Sequence record: NC_019500.1
Direction: 5' to 3' (one strand)
From: Escherichia phage Bp7
DNA length: 64,000 bases
The translations under genes and the position numbers were made by a program. The stretch's first letter is position 1. Each line of letters starts with the position of its first letter. Positions 9,819-56,383 of this stretch are shown here, piece after piece. A model generated the notes under the pieces. That model worked only from the letters and a program-made list of their open reading frames with translations. It did no database searches and was not told the origin of the DNA.

Positions 9819-9847
9819 GTTTACATCTCCTGTAGGTATGATACTAT
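9819..9847 (+). promoter_or_regulatory. early promoter (PeSL-type)
   Basis: GTTTAC, 17 nt, TACTAT; CTCCTGTAG/CTACAGGAG perfect inverted repeat spans promoter and RBS. Confidence 0.5.
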
Positions 9848-9875
9848 AAACCTATCAACTACAGGAGATTACAAA

Positions 9876-10334
9876 ATGTCAGAAATTAATTCAGAAGTAT
9901 TCATCCGCCGCAACAAATTACGTCGTCAGTTCGAAACCGAATTCCGTGAACTGAATGCGTCCATCAAAAAAGCCGCCATTAAGAGCGGAGTCCCAGCCTT
10001 CTTTATTAAGTACTCTAATCACTTGTTGGACCGTGCTATCCAACGTGAAATCGACGAAAAATACGTTTTTGCTTTATTCAAGCAACTCCATAACCATGTT
10101 AAAGAAATTCATGAATTTTTAATCCAGGAACCTCTGCCTGATGTAGAATCCGAAATTGTCCCTGGTAAAGTGTATCGTCCATTGCGTCTCGAAATTACCG
10201 ATAAAACCTTATGGCTAGGTATGACAGTAGACCGTAAACATCCTGATAAAGGATATTCCCTTAAATGCCGTATGGCATTTGTTAACTCTAAACGTTTAGA
10301 AGGTAAAACCAGCACGAAAGTAATCTATCTTTAA
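9876..10334 (+). CDS. hypothetical protein (152 aa)
   Basis: ORF downstream of promoter with GGAG RBS. Confidence 0.55.
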   Translation: MSEINSEVFIRRNKLRRQFETEFRELNASIKKAAIKSGVPAFFIKYSNHLLDRAIQREIDEKYVFALFKQLHNHVKEIHEFLIQEPLPDVESEIVPGKVYRPLRLEITDKTLWLGMTVDRKHPDKGYSLKCRMAFVNSKRLEGKTSTKVIYL

Positions 10335-10346
10335 TAATGAGGTCTC

Positions 10347-10886
10347 ATGAAAAAAGTATTAGCCACTTTACTATTGACAGTTAGTATGTCTGCCTATAGC
10401 GTAGAGCCTACTTTCAGTAATGAACAACTCGATAATTTACATTATGCGTATGCTTTCGGTGAACAATACCAAAAGTCGGGAAAGTTCAAAGAAAACCCTA
10501 ATCAAAAAGGATTAGGATATATCATGGCCGGATTACTATGGCAGGAGTCATCAGCCGGAATTAATCAAGGTTTAAATAAAGATAAGCACCATGCTTATGG
10601 CATGTTCCAAAATTACTTGCCTACGTTAAGAAGTCGTGTTCAACAGGTAGGTTGGAAGATGTCTGATAAAGAAATAATTCGTATGGTCCAAAAACGACAG
10701 AACAGTGCCTCTTGGGCCTACATTGAACTGTCTTATTGGATTGATGTTCACAAAGGTGACCTGAGAAAAGCGATTGCTTCTTATAATGCGGGCTGGAACG
10801 TCAAAGCAGGCAGTAAATATGCTTCTGAAGTTCTAGAAAAGGCCAATTACCTAAAATCTAAAAAGATGTTTGAGGCGGTATATTAA
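10347..10886 (+). CDS. secreted lytic-transglycosylase-like protein (179 aa)
   Basis: N-terminal signal peptide; SLT-like motifs WQESSAG...GMFQ and SYNAGWN. Confidence 0.5.
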   Translation: MKKVLATLLLTVSMSAYSVEPTFSNEQLDNLHYAYAFGEQYQKSGKFKENPNQKGLGYIMAGLLWQESSAGINQGLNKDKHHAYGMFQNYLPTLRSRVQQVGWKMSDKEIIRMVQKRQNSASWAYIELSYWIDVHKGDLRKAIASYNAGWNVKAGSKYASEVLEKANYLKSKKMFEAVY

Positions 10887-11243
10887 ATGATTAAGCAGAT
10901 GACTATAGCGCTTATGTTGATTGCTCCGGGAGTATTAGCGTCACAAGTTGATGATAGCAATAATTCAATTGTCGAGTATGCTACCCGTACAGCAAAAGAT
11001 TATTGTCATCCAAGTAATACTGAATGTGTTATCGAATTCAGTTCAAAAATCACGGCTGCTTTTAAAGATGGACAGAACGACGTAGAGCATCGACGAATGA
11101 AAGAGAAAACTCTTTCTAAAAGATACGAGCAACGTCTAAACGTTACTGAATGTATTCCATCTGATAAAAAGTACAAAGAAATGTGCGCGTCTATGGTAGA
11201 CAGACTCGTTGACTCGTACAACCGAGGATTAAACTCTAAATGA
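10887..11243 (+). CDS. secreted small protein (118 aa)
   Basis: Signal peptide MIKQMTIALMLIAPGVLAS; several Cys. Confidence 0.5.
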   Translation: MIKQMTIALMLIAPGVLASQVDDSNNSIVEYATRTAKDYCHPSNTECVIEFSSKITAAFKDGQNDVEHRRMKEKTLSKRYEQRLNVTECIPSDKKYKEMCASMVDRLVDSYNRGLNSK

Positions 11244-11707
11244 TTATTGATTATATTAAGGGCGATATTGTCGCCCTGTTTCTTCAAGGTAATAATGTTG
11301 CACACGGGTGCAACTGTTTCCACACAATGGGTTCAGGTGTAGCTGGACAATTAGCTAAGGCTTATCCACCTATTCTCGCTATCGATAAAACCACTTATTT
11401 AGGCAATTTGGAAAAACTTGGCACGTTTACTCAAGCCACAGGTAATAATGGCCAAATTTGCTATAATTTATATACCCAATACGAACCAGGCCCTAATCTT
11501 GATTATGGTGCTTTAGTAAACTGTATGATAGAATTAAATCAACAAGCAAAAGGTCTTTTGTTTAAACCAAGAATTTATATCCCTCGCATTGGTTGTGGTA
11601 TTGCTGGTGGTGATTGGGACAAGGTTTATCAATTGATTAATTTGTTTACTCCTGATATTAATTTAGTGGTGGTAGATTATGAAAGCCCATTACCCACATC
11701 CGTTTGA
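11240..11707 (+). CDS. macro-domain (ADP-ribose binding/processing) protein
   Basis: 155 aa; HGCNCFHTMGSGVAGQLAKAYP glycine-rich loop and IGCGIAGGDW typical of macro domains. Confidence 0.55.
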   Translation: MIIDYIKGDIVALFLQGNNVAHGCNCFHTMGSGVAGQLAKAYPPILAIDKTTYLGNLEKLGTFTQATGNNGQICYNLYTQYEPGPNLDYGALVNCMIELNQQAKGLLFKPRIYIPRIGCGIAGGDWDKVYQLINLFTPDINLVVVDYESPLPTSV

Positions 11708-11881: not shown

Positions 11882-12073
11882 ATGGTTATGAGTCTGAGTA
11901 AAGAACAGAAAGATAAATTGTTTGAGCTTATCCATGAGCTTTTGGACGAGCATACAGAAGCAAACGCCTTTTATGATGAATACGGCCCTATAGGTGCCGA
12001 ACACCAGGAAGAATTCGCCAGTCGGTTTGATGAGAAAGAAAACGAATTAATTGCTTATGTAAATAGTCTTTAA
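11882..12073 (+). CDS. hypothetical acidic protein (63 aa)
   Basis: ATG 11882 in frame with track ORF 11867-12073. Confidence 0.45.
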   Translation: MVMSLSKEQKDKLFELIHELLDEHTEANAFYDEYGPIGAEHQEEFASRFDEKENELIAYVNSL

Positions 12074-12082
12074 GAAGGTAAT

Positions 12083-12655
12083 ATGGCTCAACTTTATTTT
12101 CACTATGCGGCAATGAATTCCGGGAAGACTGCTTCATTGCTAACAGCCGCTCATAACTACAAAGAACGCGGTATGGGTGTACTCCTTTTAAAGCCTGCGG
12201 TAGACAATAGAGAATCAAGCCATAGCATTTCGTCTCGTATAGGGATTAGTCAAGAGGCTAATGCCGTGACTCCGGATATGGACCTATACGAGTTCTATCG
12301 TTGGGCTGAATCTCAAAAAGATATCCACTGTGTGTTTGTGGATGAAGCACAATTCTTAGAACCTGCACAGATAAAACAACTGGCAAAGATAGTAGACAAT
12401 TATAATGTTCCAGTTATGTGCTATGGGCTAAGAACTGATTTTCAGGGTAAACTGTTTCCTGGCTCTGCTGAATTACTCGCTACGGCAGATAAACTCGTTG
12501 AGTACAAAGGTGTGTGCCATTGTGGCCGTAAAGCTACTATGACTGCTAGGGTCCAGGATGGTATCGCAATTAAGGACGGCGCCCAAGTTTCTATAGGTGG
12601 CAACGATTCTTACGTGTCATTGTGCAGGAAGCACTGGATAGAAATAACGAGTTGA
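12083..12655 (+). CDS. tk: thymidine kinase
   Basis: 190 aa; P-loop AAMNSGKT, VFVDEAQF, C-terminal Cys zinc cluster; strong similarity to T4 Tk. Confidence 0.9.
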   Translation: MAQLYFHYAAMNSGKTASLLTAAHNYKERGMGVLLLKPAVDNRESSHSISSRIGISQEANAVTPDMDLYEFYRWAESQKDIHCVFVDEAQFLEPAQIKQLAKIVDNYNVPVMCYGLRTDFQGKLFPGSAELLATADKLVEYKGVCHCGRKATMTARVQDGIAIKDGAQVSIGGNDSYVSLCRKHWIEITS

Positions 12656-13033: not shown

Positions 13034-13327
13034 ATGGATATTTTCCGTACAGCGGCTTGTATCCTTATGGCGGGATGTTTAAGCCCTACAGTTTCACTAG
13101 CAAATGGTGCCAATGATAAATTGATGGATGCATTTGCTAGTAGTGCGATGCCTGTTTATGCGCAAATGAGTAGACCCAGCGTAAAGGCCTCCGAAGACTA
13201 TTGGGCCTATGTTACGGCTTCCTGGAAGATTTCAAGTTGTCGGACTATAGAAGCGTGCTCAATTGAAGGTCGGGCCATCGGAGAGCGTTATGTAAAACTA
13301 ATGAAGGTGGAAGATGAAGTTCAATGA
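13034..13327 (+). CDS. putative lipoprotein (97 aa)
   Basis: Signal peptide ending in lipobox-like LMAGC. Confidence 0.5.
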   Translation: MDIFRTAACILMAGCLSPTVSLANGANDKLMDAFASSAMPVYAQMSRPSVKASEDYWAYVTASWKISSCRTIEACSIEGRAIGERYVKLMKVEDEVQ

Positions 13328-55144: not shown

Positions 55145-55714
55145 ATGAACATCGAACAAAAATGTCTTTATCAAGACCGAATCAATTCCAAATTCTCAAA
55201 ACACGAACAGAATCTTTTAGAAAAATGTCTGGATGCTAAAAAAGACCCTAACTTCCATTACGACCTTGACAAACTGGTTCGCAAGCATGTTACTTCAGCG
55301 GTTCCAGTAGAGTTGTATCGTGGGATTACCACCAGAGAACTTGAGCAATTAGAGCTCCTTTCAGTAGGGTGTCAATGGTCTCCTGGTCGAGTTACTTCTT
55401 TTAGTACACAATACTCTCAGGCTCGTCAGTTCGCAGGGGCGTGGGAATATGGAACCAAAACCATTTTAAGTCTCAGGAATGCACCGTTCATTTTCGACTA
55501 CTACAACCATGCTATAGACCTTGTTCTTGCAGGGAATGTAGACGCCCTTGAAATTGATGAAACTCGTATTGACCTCTATGATATGGTCGAAACTGAATGT
55601 GAGTTCATGGTCTCTAGCCAATCGCGATTTGAGATTGTTGCAATCGAAACCGTCAAAAGAGACCCGTATGAAATCGAGTACAAAACAATTCATTTAAAAA
55701 TGTTGGATTTTTAG
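55145..55714 (+). CDS. ADP-ribosyltransferase, ModA/ModB family
   Basis: 189 aa; R-S-E ART motifs (LYRG, SFSTQ, EFMVSSQ); position near dda as in T4. Confidence 0.65.
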   Translation: MNIEQKCLYQDRINSKFSKHEQNLLEKCLDAKKDPNFHYDLDKLVRKHVTSAVPVELYRGITTRELEQLELLSVGCQWSPGRVTSFSTQYSQARQFAGAWEYGTKTILSLRNAPFIFDYYNHAIDLVLAGNVDALEIDETRIDLYDMVETECEFMVSSQSRFEIVAIETVKRDPYEIEYKTIHLKMLDF

Positions 55715-55768
55715 TTTACAAGCAAGGATGCTTGTGGTACTATCTTTCTATCAACTGAGGAGAATAAT

Positions 55769-56383
55769 ATGTTATATCCAAGCCACCGATTATCAGAGTT
55801 CTATGACAATGTTAAGTGTGATGATTTCCGTGAAAACATCCAGTGCGAAATCAACCAGCAGTATTCTGATTTAGAACAGAGTACCCTCTGGCAGTGCATG
55901 GAAAATAAACCAGATTGTATCCAGGAAACTCTGAACAAAATTATTCGTAAGAACCTGACTTCTGTAGTGCCTGATAAGCTCTATCGAGGCATATCTAAAA
56001 AGACTATGAAGTATCTAGAGTCCACAATGTGTGTAGGTGCGGTAATTGAATTCGACCGCGTGATGAGCTTCTCTAAAGACTTCAACGTGGCAAGGAATTT
56101 CGCGTCTTATAACTTCTACGGCACATTTAATATCTTTTGTATTAATGATGCACCATTTGTGTACAATTATCAGGAAGAAATCTTTAAAATGTTATGTGCC
56201 GCGCCCCCTGAAGAGTTCCCAGGTGCATTTCCTGAATCTACCCGTGTAGCAAACTTACAATTAATCAATGATGAAGATGAGATGATGTTCCCTGCGGGAA
56301 CTACGCTGCGCGTAGACTCTATTGAGAGAAATCCTAAATGGAATAATTACACCATTTGGAATCTTTCCGTTCTTTCTTACTGA
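55769..56383 (+). CDS. ADP-ribosyltransferase, ModA/ModB family (paralog)
   Basis: 204 aa; LYRG, MSFSKD, EMMFPAGT motifs; tandem paralog of 55145-55714. Confidence 0.65.
   Translation: MLYPSHRLSEFYDNVKCDDFRENIQCEINQQYSDLEQSTLWQCMENKPDCIQETLNKIIRKNLTSVVPDKLYRGISKKTMKYLESTMCVGAVIEFDRVMSFSKDFNVARNFASYNFYGTFNIFCINDAPFVYNYQEEIFKMLCAAPPEEFPGAFPESTRVANLQLINDEDEMMFPAGTTLRVDSIERNPKWNNYTIWNLSVLSY

What the first reader, a model, noticed from the sequence alone, without database searches (positions are those of the whole stretch)
10347..11707. Secreted SLT-like protein, secreted small protein and macro-domain protein cluster
A signal-peptide protein with lytic-transglycosylase-like motifs, a second secreted Cys-containing protein and a macro-domain protein are transcribed together downstream of the promoter at 9819. 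Macro domains remove ADP-ribose or process its derivatives, so this one could counter host ADP-ribosylation-based defenses or regulate the phage's own Mod-type ADP-ribosyltransferases at 55145-56383.
Basis: inference. Interest (0 to 1): 0.4.

Follow-up and report, generated by a model that had tools for sequence, protein, structure and literature searches.

The report
T4 vs.1–vs–tk.4 early gene block
These are the ordinary T4-type early genes vs.1, vs and tk.4 of a T-even-like phage; the tk.4 macrodomain matches a T4 protein recently shown by genetics to protect the phage from the bacterial DarTG2 DNA-ADP-ribosylating defence.

Summary
Window 10347-11707 holds three tightly packed + strand ORFs that are orthologues of T4 vs.1 (67% aa identity), vs (46%) and tk.4 (53%). 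They sit in the conserved regB–vs.1–vs–tk.4–tk.3–tk.2–tk block of a Dhakavirus-like phage (97% nt identity to WG01, IME08 and C6).

- **Tk.4** is a stand-alone TARG1/ALC1-class macrodomain. T4 tk.4 was named AdfM in a 2025 preprint because its deletion sensitises T4 to DarTG2.
- **Active site.** The TARG1/DarG catalytic Lys is replaced by an invariant Gln (Q80), and N25 is also invariant. This matches Streptomyces SCO6735, which needs that Gln to cleave thymidine-linked ADP-ribose.
- **The alternative idea**, reversal of the phage's own Mod/Alt modification, is unlikely.
- **Vs.1** is an exported, divergent family-1 lytic-transglycosylase-like protein with an intact catalytic Glu. Its function is unknown.
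- **The "small secreted protein"** is Vs, annotated as the valyl-tRNA-synthetase modifier. Its conserved signal peptide and four invariant Cys fit poorly with a cytoplasmic target, and this is unexplained.

The three genes are co-transcribed neighbours, not a functional module. Overall the finding is ordinary and largely known.

The parts
9820..9847 (+). Sigma-70/T4-early-type promoter-like site (TTTACA-16-TACTAT, TG upstream of the -10) in front of regB. It is the probable start of the transcript that also covers vs.1, vs and tk.4.
   Evidence: 9 of 12 matches, TG present. It aligns with T4 GTTTAC...TGGTATAAT upstream of regB. Function is inferred, not shown.
9876..10334 (+). regB (site-specific endoribonuclease). 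Context gene between the promoter and the finding.
   Evidence: Pfam REGB_T4 E 4.7e-69; phrog_1323. Its Shine-Dalgarno region contains GGAG at 9864.
10347..10886 (+). vs.1 orthologue: exported, divergent family-1 lytic-transglycosylase (SLT)-like protein, 179 aa.
   Evidence: 67% identical to T4 Vs.1. Pfam SLT scores 15.7 bits (below the gathering score of 21.3) for this protein, but 31/37 relatives match at E<=0.01. The AF2 model has pLDDT 87.9. The top 15 Foldseek PDB matches are all lytic transglycosylases or goose-type lysozyme, with E 0.03-0.5 and TMq 0.38-0.52.
10347..10400 (+). Predicted Sec signal peptide of Vs.1 (MKKVLATLLLTVSMSAYS | VEPTF).
   Evidence: Rule-based check: 34/37 relatives have this architecture. 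pLDDT is low at residues 1-20. The cleavage site is inferred.
10545..10547 (+). Codon of E67 of Vs.1, the putative catalytic glutamate in the invariant W-Q-E-S-S motif.
   Evidence: Invariant in 37 sequences. Equivalence with the Slt70-type 'ES' motif rests on my knowledge of family-1 LT motifs.
10887..11243 (+). vs orthologue ('valyl-tRNA synthetase modifier'), 118 aa: predicted exported four-helix protein with four invariant Cys.
   Evidence: 46% identical to T4 Vs; phrog_1256. Invariant C40, C47, C89 and C100. AF2 gives helices 23-39, 45-67, 73-89 and 94-115, with residues 1-21 below pLDDT 50.
10887..10943 (+). Predicted signal peptide of Vs (MIKQMTIALMLIAPGVLAS | QVDD).
   Evidence: 25/26 relatives have this architecture. 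A Karamvirus relative has a lipoprotein box LSGC instead.
11240..11707 (+). tk.4 orthologue (T4 AdfM): 155-aa stand-alone TARG1/ALC1-class macrodomain, Gln-type active site.
   Evidence: Pfam Macro 33.1 bits against a gathering score of 22. 53% identical over the full length to T4 Tk.4. Family profile against PDB: BT1257 5.5e-20, SCO6735 1.4e-17, TARG1 1e-16, DarG 1.2e-9. It is the only such locus in the window.
11312..11314 (+). Codon of N25 of Tk.4 (AHGCN motif), equivalent to SCO6735 Asn27 and DarG Asn22.
   Evidence: Invariant in 33 sequences. Alignment to 5e3b. SCO6735 N27S is nearly inactive (PMC9411070).
11477..11479 (+). Codon of Q80 of Tk.4 (NLYTQ motif). It occupies the position of TARG1 K84, DarG K80 and SCO6735 Gln85.
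   Evidence: Invariant. Alignments. SCO6735 Q85A is inactive (PMC9411070).
11591..11611 (+). Codons of G118-G124 (GCGIAGG), the diphosphate-binding loop 2 of the macrodomain. A122 takes the place of TARG1 D125.
   Evidence: G118, G120 and G124 are invariant; A122 and G123 are at least 90% conserved. Alignment to TARG1 'GCGLDRL' and to SCO6735/BT1257 'GCGLAGG'.

Best explanation
The interval holds three unrelated early genes of a T-even-type (Dhakavirus-like) phage. They are read as part of one early transcript that starts at the promoter in front of regB.

**tk.4 (11240-11707)** encodes a small cytoplasmic macrodomain enzyme, the orthologue of T4 Tk.4/AdfM.
- Most likely mechanism: the host DarTG2 system ADP-ribosylates thymidines in single-stranded phage DNA. 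The macrodomain binds the ADP-ribose through its two Gly-rich loops (G31-A35 and G118-G124). It cleaves the ribose-thymine bond, releases ADP-ribose, and so restores replicable DNA.
- Catalysis is of the SCO6735 type. An invariant Gln (Q80), held in place by an invariant Asn (N25), positions the distal ribose. This replaces the Lys used by TARG1 and DarG.

**vs.1 (10347-10886)** encodes a periplasmic lysozyme-fold, lytic-transglycosylase-like protein with an intact catalytic Glu. It probably cuts or remodels host peptidoglycan early in infection. Its biological role is unknown.

**vs (10887-11243)** encodes the Vs protein. It is small, helical, probably exported and probably disulfide-bonded.

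**What is shown here:** gene identities, orthology, conserved residues and fold class.
**What is shown elsewhere, for the T4 orthologues:** the anti-DarTG2 phenotype of tk.4, the minimal-medium phenotype of vs, and the non-essentiality of all three genes.
**What is inferred:** the enzymatic chemistry of Tk.4, the export of Vs.1 and Vs, and the activity of Vs.1.
For: **Synteny and orthology with T4**
- The gene order matches T4 regB-vs.1-vs-tk.4-tk.3-tk.2-tk.
- Amino-acid identities are 67%, 46% and 53%.

**Macrodomain family placement**
- Pfam Macro scores above threshold.
- The closest solved relatives are all TARG1/ALC1-class.
- The PADLOC DarG model matches over the macrodomain only, E 4.9e-6.

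**Active-site residues**
- N25, Q80, G118, G120, G124 and W126 are invariant in 33 diverse relatives.
- Q80 aligns with TARG1 K84 and SCO6735 Gln85. N25 aligns with SCO6735 Asn27.

**Published work on relatives**
- SCO6735 Q85A is dead and N27S nearly dead. SCO6735 removes DarT-made thymidine-ADP-ribose and rescues E. coli from DarT (PMC9411070).
- T4 tk.4 was the only significant hit against DarTG2, and a clean knock-out is sensitised (10.1101/2025.11.20.689424).
- T4 vs.1, vs and tk.4 are non-essential on K-12.

**Vs.1 and Vs**
- Vs.1: invariant LT motifs, SLT hits in 31/37 relatives and an LT/goose-lysozyme fold.
- Signal peptides are conserved.
- Vs has four invariant Cys.
Against: - No experiment exists for this phage's proteins.
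- ADP-ribosyl-DNA hydrolase activity has not been shown even for T4 Tk.4. The preprint infers it.
- The window protein is only 53% identical to T4 Tk.4.
- It lacks the 5-residue-longer Lys-bearing mobile loop that SCO6735 uses for DNA binding. It also has Gly where SCO6735 has Val25.
- The SLT assignment of Vs.1 is weak for this sequence alone: Pfam is below threshold, the PDB profile search gives nothing significant, and Foldseek E-values are 0.03 or higher.
- Export of Vs conflicts with its classical cytoplasmic role.
Confidence: 0.8

Rival explanations
1. The macrodomain reverses or tunes the phage's own ADP-ribosylation of host proteins by Alt, ModA and ModB (ORFs at 55145-56383).
For: Mod-type ART genes are present in the same window. 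Relatives of this macrodomain class, TARG1 and SCO6735, can remove some protein-linked ADP-ribose (PMC9411070).
Against: To my knowledge Alt, ModA and ModB modify arginine. Arg-linked ADP-ribose is removed by ARH/DraG-type enzymes, not macrodomains; TARG1 and SCO6735 act on Glu/Asp-linked ADP-ribose.

T4 tk.4 mutants have no fitness defect on K-12, where Alt and Mod are active. The only condition found to need the gene was DarTG2.

The gene is not adjacent to the ART genes; they are about 44 kb apart in the window.
Confidence: 0.05
2. Tk.4 is a small-molecule enzyme, as older annotation says ('A1pp phosphatase'). It would be an ADP-ribose-1''-phosphate phosphatase or an O-acetyl-ADP-ribose deacetylase that cleans up NAD-derived metabolites. 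It might also degrade ADP-ribose-derived defence signals.
For: Yeast Poa1p (ADP-ribose 1''-phosphate phosphatase, 6lfu) is a significant relative, at 1.3e-14 with the family profile. RefSeq and PHROG call the family 'phosphatase'. Some sources call relatives O-acetyl-ADP-ribose deacetylase.
Against: These names come from domain transfer, not assays (PMC1524935). The specific genetic requirement in T4 is DarTG2, a DNA-modifying system. The closest relatives by score are BT1257 and SCO6735, and SCO6735 is a proven DNA thymidine-ADP-ribose hydrolase.
Confidence: 0.1
3. Tk.4 neutralises DarT2 mainly by binding it (stoichiometric inhibition) rather than by hydrolysing the DNA adduct. Alternatively, its main substrate is ADP-ribosylated RNA (uracil-linked) rather than DNA.
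For: Catalytically dead SCO6735 Q85A still inhibits DarT in vitro (PMC9411070). TARG1-like macrodomains, including SCO6735, also cleave uracil-linked ADP-ribose on RNA (PMC13036486).
Against: Strict invariance of the ADP-ribose-binding and catalytic positions across distant phage relatives argues for selection on catalysis. The protein lacks the C-terminal DarT-binding domain of DarG: it is 155 aa, and matches cover only model positions 3-142 of 329 (PADLOC DarG) and 3-138 of 338 (NCBIfam DarG).
Confidence: 0.12
4. The three genes form one functional module. For example, Vs would be a periplasmic partner or inhibitor of the lysozyme-like Vs.1, as Spackle is for gp5 lysozyme, and Tk.4 would be linked to them.
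For: The genes are adjacent and translationally coupled. Two of the three products carry signal peptides. Vs resembles Spackle in being a small, helical, Cys-containing exported protein.
Against: Distributions differ strongly: Vs.1 is in 2073 phage records, Vs in 794 and Tk.4 in 2827. Vs.1 occurs without a detectable Vs in Aeromonas, Acinetobacter and Vibrio phages.

There is no homology between Vs and Spackle (hhalign probability 0.8%). Spackle did not appear among the 50 structural matches listed for Vs.

Tk.4 has no signal peptide (0/33), so it works in a different compartment.
Confidence: 0.07

Closest known systems
T4 Tk.4 / AdfM (anti-DarT factor Macrodomain; bioRxiv 10.1101/2025.11.20.689424)
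   Same: Same length (155 aa), 53% identity over the full length, and the same position between vs and tk.3. The motifs AHGCNC, NLYTQ and PRIG.GI..G.W are shared.
   Different: 47% of residues differ (for example GCGIAGGD here and GAGIGKGN in T4). Nothing has been tested for the Dhakavirus-type protein. Enzymatic activity is so far inferred even for T4.
Streptomyces coelicolor SCO6735 (PDB 5e3b) and Bacteroides BT1257 (2afc/2fg1): Gln-type TARG1/ALC1-class macrodomains
   Same: These are the best solved relatives by profile score: 5.5e-20 for BT1257 and 1.4e-17 for SCO6735. They have Gln at the TARG1 K84 / DarG K80 position, Asn at the Asn27 position and a GCGLAGG-type loop. SCO6735 cleaves DarT-made thymidine-ADP-ribose (PMC9411070).
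   Different: The window protein lacks SCO6735's five-residue-longer mobile loop with Lys89 and Lys94. There are 8 residues between Q80 and Y89, against 13 in SCO6735. It has Gly23 where SCO6735 has Val25. It is phage-encoded and expressed early.
DarG antitoxin macrodomain (T. aquaticus 5m31, M. tuberculosis 5m3i) and the Lys-type phage AdfM of PhiKZ (gp104; PMC13309987)
   Same: Same fold class. Same presumed substrate (thymidine-linked ADP-ribose on ssDNA) and the same biological logic, an orphan antitoxin-like eraser used by a phage.
   Different: The catalytic Lys (DarG K80; PhiKZ AdfM K78) is replaced by Gln. There is no C-terminal DarT-binding domain and no adjacent darT gene. The NCBIfam DarG equivalog scores 20.4 bits against a cut-off of 250. 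Profile E-values are only 1e-9 to 8e-8.
Human TARG1/OARD1 (4j5r)
   Same: Full-length alignment, E 1e-16 with the family profile. TARG1 also removes thymidine- and uracil-linked ADP-ribose (PMC13036486).
   Different: Both TARG1 catalytic residues are substituted: K84 aligns with Q80 and D125 aligns with A122.
Family-1 lytic transglycosylases (Slt70, P. aeruginosa Slt and MltD, Neisseria LtgA) and goose-type lysozyme (for Vs.1)
   Same: Predicted fold matches (top 15 PDB hits). Invariant ES, G..Q, AYNAG and Y motifs. Exported.
   Different: Sequence similarity is marginal: Pfam 15.7 bits for this protein, and no significant PDB sequence hit. It is a single small domain of 161 mature residues. 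It is expressed early, not as a virion or lysis protein. No activity has been shown.
T4 Vs, the 'valyl-tRNA synthetase modifier' (for the small ORF)
   Same: 46% identity, same position, and the same signal-peptide-like N-terminus and four Cys.
   Different: Nothing in the sequence suggests a cytoplasmic tRNA-synthetase-binding protein. The family looks exported, and a Karamvirus member even has a lipoprotein box.

Membership tests
Macro domain (Pfam PF01661) | Profile match above the curated gathering score | tested here: met
   33.1 bits against 22, covering profile positions 2-117 of 118.
Macro domain (Pfam PF01661) | Conserved ADP-ribose-binding loops: the Gly-rich loop after beta2 and the G-x-G-x-x-G-G loop | tested here: met
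   G31, G33 and A35, and G118, G120, G123 and G124, are invariant or at least 90% conserved in 33 relatives.
TARG1/ALC1-class macrodomains, Gln-type subgroup (SCO6735/BT1257) | Closest solved relatives belong to this class | tested here: met
   BT1257 5.5e-20, SCO6735 1.4e-17, TARG1 1e-16. MacroD/nsp3-type macrodomains score only 5.6e-3.
TARG1/ALC1-class macrodomains, Gln-type subgroup (SCO6735/BT1257) | Gln at the position of TARG1 K84 / DarG K80 (SCO6735 Gln85), and Asn at the SCO6735 Asn27 position | tested here: met
   Q80 and N25 are invariant and align with Gln85 and Asn27 of 5e3b. Their roles are described in PMC9411070.
TARG1/ALC1-class macrodomains, Gln-type subgroup (SCO6735/BT1257) | Extended mobile loop (5 residues longer than TARG1/DarG) carrying Lys89 and Lys94; Val25 | tested here: not met
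   The loop is TARG1-length (Q80-YEPGPNLD-Y89) and has no Lys. G23 replaces Val25.
DarG antitoxin (DarTG2 toxin-antitoxin) | Match to the curated DarG equivalog model at its cut-off | tested here: not met
   NCBIfam NF048014 scores 20.4 bits against a cut-off of 250. PADLOC DarG scores 24.3 bits, over the macrodomain part only.
DarG antitoxin (DarTG2 toxin-antitoxin) | C-terminal DarT-binding domain and an adjacent darT gene | tested here: not met
   The protein is 155 aa. Matches cover only model positions 3-142 of 329 (PADLOC DarG) and 3-138 of 338 (NCBIfam DarG). The neighbours are vs and tk.3.
DarG antitoxin (DarTG2 toxin-antitoxin) | Catalytic Lys80 | tested here: not met
   The position is Gln in all 33 relatives.
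AdfM of T4 (Tk.4), an anti-DarTG2 factor | Orthology to T4 Tk.4 (sequence and synteny) | tested here: met
   53% identity over 155 of 155 aa. Same place in the regB...tk block. Only one such locus in the window.
AdfM of T4 (Tk.4), an anti-DarTG2 factor | Loss of the gene sensitises the phage to DarTG2; removal of ADP-ribose from thymidine in DNA | not testable with these tools
   The genetic result exists for T4 only. The biochemical activity has not been reported for T4 Tk.4.
SLT / family-1 lytic transglycosylases (PF01464) (Vs.1) | Profile match above the gathering score | tested here: inconclusive
   The window protein scores 15.7 bits against 21.3. 31/37 relatives match at E<=0.01, best 1.3e-7. 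About a third of database relatives carry a precomputed PF01464 hit.
SLT / family-1 lytic transglycosylases (PF01464) (Vs.1) | Catalytic Glu in an E-S motif, plus G-x-x-Q, A-Y-N-x-G and a downstream Tyr | tested here: met
   E67, S69, G85, Q88, Y146, N147, G149 and Y158 are invariant in 37 sequences.
SLT / family-1 lytic transglycosylases (PF01464) (Vs.1) | Goose-lysozyme/SLT fold | tested here: met
   AF2 pLDDT 87.9. The top 15 PDB matches are LTs or goose-type lysozyme, with probability 0.66-1.0, but E is 0.03-0.5 and TMq 0.38-0.52.
SLT / family-1 lytic transglycosylases (PF01464) (Vs.1) | Formation of 1,6-anhydro-MurNAc products from peptidoglycan | not testable with these tools
Vs, valyl-tRNA synthetase modifier (phrog_1256 / PF26829) | Sequence membership | tested here: met
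   phrog_1256 E 3.6e-34. 46% identity to T4 Vs. Database relatives carry PF26829.
Vs, valyl-tRNA synthetase modifier (phrog_1256 / PF26829) | Binds and modifies host valyl-tRNA synthetase (a cytoplasmic enzyme) | not testable with these tools
   The sequence features point to export. This is an unresolved conflict.

The most novel reading that the evidence does not exclude
Vs, carried for 50 years as a cytoplasmic 'valyl-tRNA synthetase modifier', may in fact be a periplasmic, disulfide-bonded four-helix protein. In Karamvirus it would be a lipoprotein. Its effect on ValRS would then be indirect, would occur only after the compartments mix, or would belong to a different gene product.

Secondarily, T-even AdfM may be a mechanistically distinct, Gln-type eraser, unlike the Lys-type DarG and PhiKZ AdfM. 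It could have a broader substrate range, including uracil-ADP-ribose on RNA and Glu-linked protein ADP-ribose.
Probability: 0.3. Interest if true: 0.5.

Novelty: already known. Interest (0 to 1): 0.22.

Why it matters
The gene content is standard for T-even phages, and the key function (tk.4 = AdfM, anti-DarTG2) is already in a 2025 preprint.

Three modest points of value remain:
1. Dhakavirus-type phages, which are often proposed for therapy, carry the anti-DarTG2 macrodomain. They should therefore resist that defence.
2. The T-even AdfM family uses the SCO6735-type Gln active site rather than the DarG Lys. This guides the choice of mutants (Q80, N25) and predicts a possibly wider substrate range.
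3. The conserved export signals and Cys pattern of Vs question how it can act on a cytoplasmic tRNA synthetase. This is directly testable.

Tried and rejected
- **Single-sequence PDB searches for Vs.1 and Vs** gave nothing.
- **Family-profile PDB search for Vs.1** gave only non-significant hits: metacaspase, and goose lysozyme at E 0.7.
- **Foldseek of the Vs model against PDB** returned only generic helical bundles, all with E above 1.
- **Profile search of Vs against 1.84 billion representative proteins** found 8 hits. Apart from one, all are short proteins (77-119 aa) resembling known T4-like-phage Vs sequences. The exception is a spurious multi-repeat 3694-aa protein with no Cys motif. No bacterial homologue was found that could hint at function.
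- **Vs as a Spackle-like lysozyme inhibitor** was rejected: hhalign probability is 0.8%, and the distributions of Vs and Vs.1 differ.
- **Showing a residue-level DarG alignment** with a truncated query failed, because DarG dropped out of the hits. The Lys/Gln equivalence therefore rests on the TARG1 and SCO6735 alignments plus the published structural alignment (PMC9411070).
- **The terminator-like hairpin inside tk.4** is conserved only in T4, Shinka and the window. It is absent in more distant relatives, so it is not a family-wide RNA element.
- **Literature searches** for a discussion of the Vs signal peptide and for a Vs.1 function found nothing beyond the 2006 domain note. The T4 genome review (PMC150520) is not held.
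It was re-run without that row.
Full report
**What is there**

The interval 10347-11707 contains exactly three + strand ORFs: 10347-10886 (179 aa), 10887-11243 (118 aa) and 11240-11707 (155 aa). They are packed like an operon. The stop of the first ORF abuts the ATG of the second. The second and third overlap as ATGA. The third overlaps the next gene by 29 nt.

Upstream lies regB (9876-10334; Pfam REGB_T4, E 4.7e-69). Downstream lie DUF7202 (tk.3), DUF7438 (tk.2) and thymidine kinase. The DNA is 97% identical to Escherichia phages WG01, C6 and IME08, and about 95% to JS10. These records annotate the genes as regB, vs.1, vs, tk.4, tk.3, tk.2 and tk.

In T4 itself the order is regB-vs.1-vs-tk.4-tk.3-tk.2-tk.1-tk. 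The three window proteins are 67%, 46% and 53% identical to T4 Vs.1, Vs and Tk.4 over their full lengths.

It aligns with the early-promoter sequence upstream of T4 regB.

**The macrodomain protein (tk.4)**

Pfam Macro is above threshold at 33.1 bits against 22. By sequence, the solved relatives are all of the TARG1/ALC1-like class: Bacteroides BT1257, Streptomyces SCO6735, yeast Poa1p, the M. tuberculosis DarG macrodomain and human TARG1.

A profile of 33 diverse relatives sharpens this:

| Relative | E-value |
|---|---|
| BT1257 | 5.5e-20 |
| SCO6735 | 1.4e-17 |
| TARG1 | 1e-16 |
| Poa1p | 1.3e-14 |
| M. tuberculosis DarG | 1.2e-9 |
| T. aquaticus DarG | 7.6e-8 |
| Coronavirus nsp3-type macrodomains | 5.6e-3 |

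The invariant positions are A21, H22, G23, N25, G33, A35, D49, G61, N76, Y78, T79, Q80, G84, P115, G118, G120, G124 and W126.

In the printed alignments, TARG1 K84 falls on Q80 and TARG1 D125 on A122. SCO6735 Gln85 falls on Q80 and Asn27 on N25. So the TARG1 catalytic dyad is absent, and so is the DarG lysine, which SCO6735 work places at the same position (PMC9411070). The family instead has the SCO6735 solution.

That work showed the following (PMC9411070):
- Q85A abolishes SCO6735 activity and N27S nearly abolishes it.
- The enzyme removes DarT-made thymidine-linked ADP-ribose.
- It rescues E. coli from DarT.

The window protein differs from SCO6735 in two ways. It lacks the five-residue-longer, Lys-bearing mobile loop, and it has Gly in place of Val25.

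It is not a DarG. It has 155 aa and no C-terminal DarT-binding domain. There is no darT neighbour. The NCBIfam DarG equivalog scores 20.4 bits against a cut-off of 250, and the PADLOC DarG model matches only its macrodomain part.

**What is already known about it**

A November 2025 preprint (10.1101/2025.11.20.689424) reports these results for T4:
- tk.4 is the single significant transposon-screen hit in a DarTG2-expressing host.
- A clean knock-out becomes DarTG2-sensitive.
- The authors name the gene adfM, for anti-DarT factor Macrodomain.
- They infer, but do not show, enzymatic removal of ADP-ribose from DNA.

The supplement lists T4 vs.1, vs and tk.4 as non-essential on K-12.

A separate 2026 paper gives the same name to PhiKZ gp104. 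That protein is a Lys-type (N23/K78) DarG-like macrodomain with demonstrated activity (PMC13309987). The T-even family is thus a Gln-type counterpart.

T4 30.3/AdfN, a NADAR protein, handles DarTG1 (PMC11825919).

The A1pp/macro match of tk.4 and the marginal SLT match of vs.1 were already noted in 2006 (PMC1524935).

Homologues of the window Tk.4 occur in 2827 of 50,697 phage records.

The alternative idea, control of the phage's own ModA/ModB enzymes (confirmed at 55145-56383), is unlikely. To my knowledge those enzymes make Arg-linked ADP-ribose, which is not a macrodomain substrate. T4 tk.4 mutants are fully fit where those enzymes act.

**Vs.1**

The N-terminus, MKKVLATLLLTVSMSAYS|VEPTF, has a textbook Sec signal architecture. 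This is shared by 34/37 relatives.

For this sequence alone Pfam SLT is sub-threshold at 15.7 bits against 21.3. However, 31/37 relatives match at E<=0.01.

The four family-1 lytic-transglycosylase motifs are invariant: W-x-E67-S-S, G85..Q88, Y146-N-A-G149 and Y158.

A confident AF2 model (pLDDT 87.9) finds only lytic transglycosylases (MltD, LtgA, Slt, Slt70) and goose-type lysozyme among its 15 best PDB matches. The scores are modest, with E 0.03-0.5 and TMq 0.38-0.52.

I conclude that Vs.1 is an exported, divergent but probably active LT-like enzyme. Its role in early infection is unknown. It occurs in 2073 phage records, including phages of Aeromonas, Acinetobacter and Vibrio.

**The small protein is Vs**

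It belongs to phrog_1256 / PF26829, 'valyl tRNA synthetase modifier'. The evidence that it is exported is as follows:
- The N-terminal 19-20 residues form a signal peptide in 25/26 relatives.
- Four Cys (C40, C47, C89, C100) are invariant.
- The AF2 model has four helices. The Cys pairs flank the helix1-helix2 and helix3-helix4 turns, and residues 1-21 are unstructured.
- Divergent Vs-like ORFs with a signal peptide and four Cys sit in the same slot in a Jiaodavirus (hhalign probability 97.6%). A weaker candidate (probability 69.8%) sits there in Klebsiella phage KM2.
- In a Karamvirus, the full ORF begins MKKLFVLLVVFALSGC, a lipoprotein box.

The family is confined to T4-like phages (794 records; 8 hits among 1.84 billion representative proteins).

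All of this points to an envelope protein. That is hard to square with binding a cytoplasmic synthetase. I found no paper addressing the conflict. The only recent functional datum is that a T4 vs knock-out plaques poorly on minimal medium.

Removing the signal peptide would give a mature protein of about 11 kDa. From memory, this is close to the roughly 10 kDa reported for the classical ValRS-modifying factor. I record the conflict as unexplained.

**Not a module**

The three genes have different distributions and different predicted compartments. The segment between vs.1 and tk.4 is variable between genera. Vs is not related to Spackle. Co-transcription here reflects the compact T4 early region, not a shared function.

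**Verdict**

The finding is ordinary, with two small loose ends: the Gln-type chemistry of T-even AdfM, and the export signals of Vs.

Noticed in passing
window 11259-11277 (+), inside the start of tk.4: There is an 8-bp GC-rich hairpin, AGGGCGAT-ATT-GTCGCCCT (about -13 kcal/mol), followed by a T-rich run. The scan flagged it as terminator-like. The 20-nt core is identical in T4 and phage Shinka, although the proteins are only 53% identical to the window's. It is absent in Karamvirus, Jiaodavirus and more distant relatives.
   Followed up: partly
L003:762-1088 (Enterobacter phage vB_EclM-UFV01, Karamvirus): The Vs-like ORF is annotated from an internal Met at 813. The full ORF starts at 762 with MKKLFVLLVVFALSGC, a lipoprotein signal (lipobox LSGC). 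This suggests a membrane-anchored Vs variant and a mis-called start.
   Followed up: partly
L003:1085-1504 and L004:1100-1492: A second exported ORF (signal peptide ...SVNA|WEKLPGYP...) sits between the Vs-like gene and tk.4 in Karamvirus and Jiaodavirus. The regB-to-tk.4 segment therefore seems to be a hot spot for exported proteins.
   Followed up: no
window 9864 (GGAG in the regB ribosome-binding site); also 9987, 10544, 10929: The regB Shine-Dalgarno sequence contains GGAG, the RegB cleavage motif. This is consistent with the autoregulation known for T4 regB. Further GGAG sites lie inside regB, vs.1 and vs.
   Followed up: no
window 10068-10076 (+), inside regB: There is a MotA-box-like sequence, TTTGCTTTA (the T4 middle-promoter -30 element), but no convincing -10 element at the right distance. 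It could be a weak middle promoter for vs.1 onward, or chance.
   Followed up: no
window 12073-12083: tk.1, present between tk.2 and tk in T4, is missing here; tk.2 is followed directly by tk. In addition, tk.4 and tk.3 overlap by 29 nt here, against 4 nt in T4.
   Followed up: no
window 55145-55714 and 55769-56383: Two tandem ModA/ModB-type ADP-ribosyltransferase ORFs are confirmed (phrog_832, E 1.9e-37 and 5.8e-45).
   Followed up: partly
window 13034-13327: An rI (lysis-inhibition antiholin) homologue (phrog_1246) lies just downstream of tk. It is another exported protein of this region.
   Followed up: no
P0250 (3694-aa database protein): The Vs profile gave 17 weak repeated matches to a giant, Glu-rich repeat protein that has no Cys motif. 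I judged this spurious score summation over repeats.
   Followed up: yes
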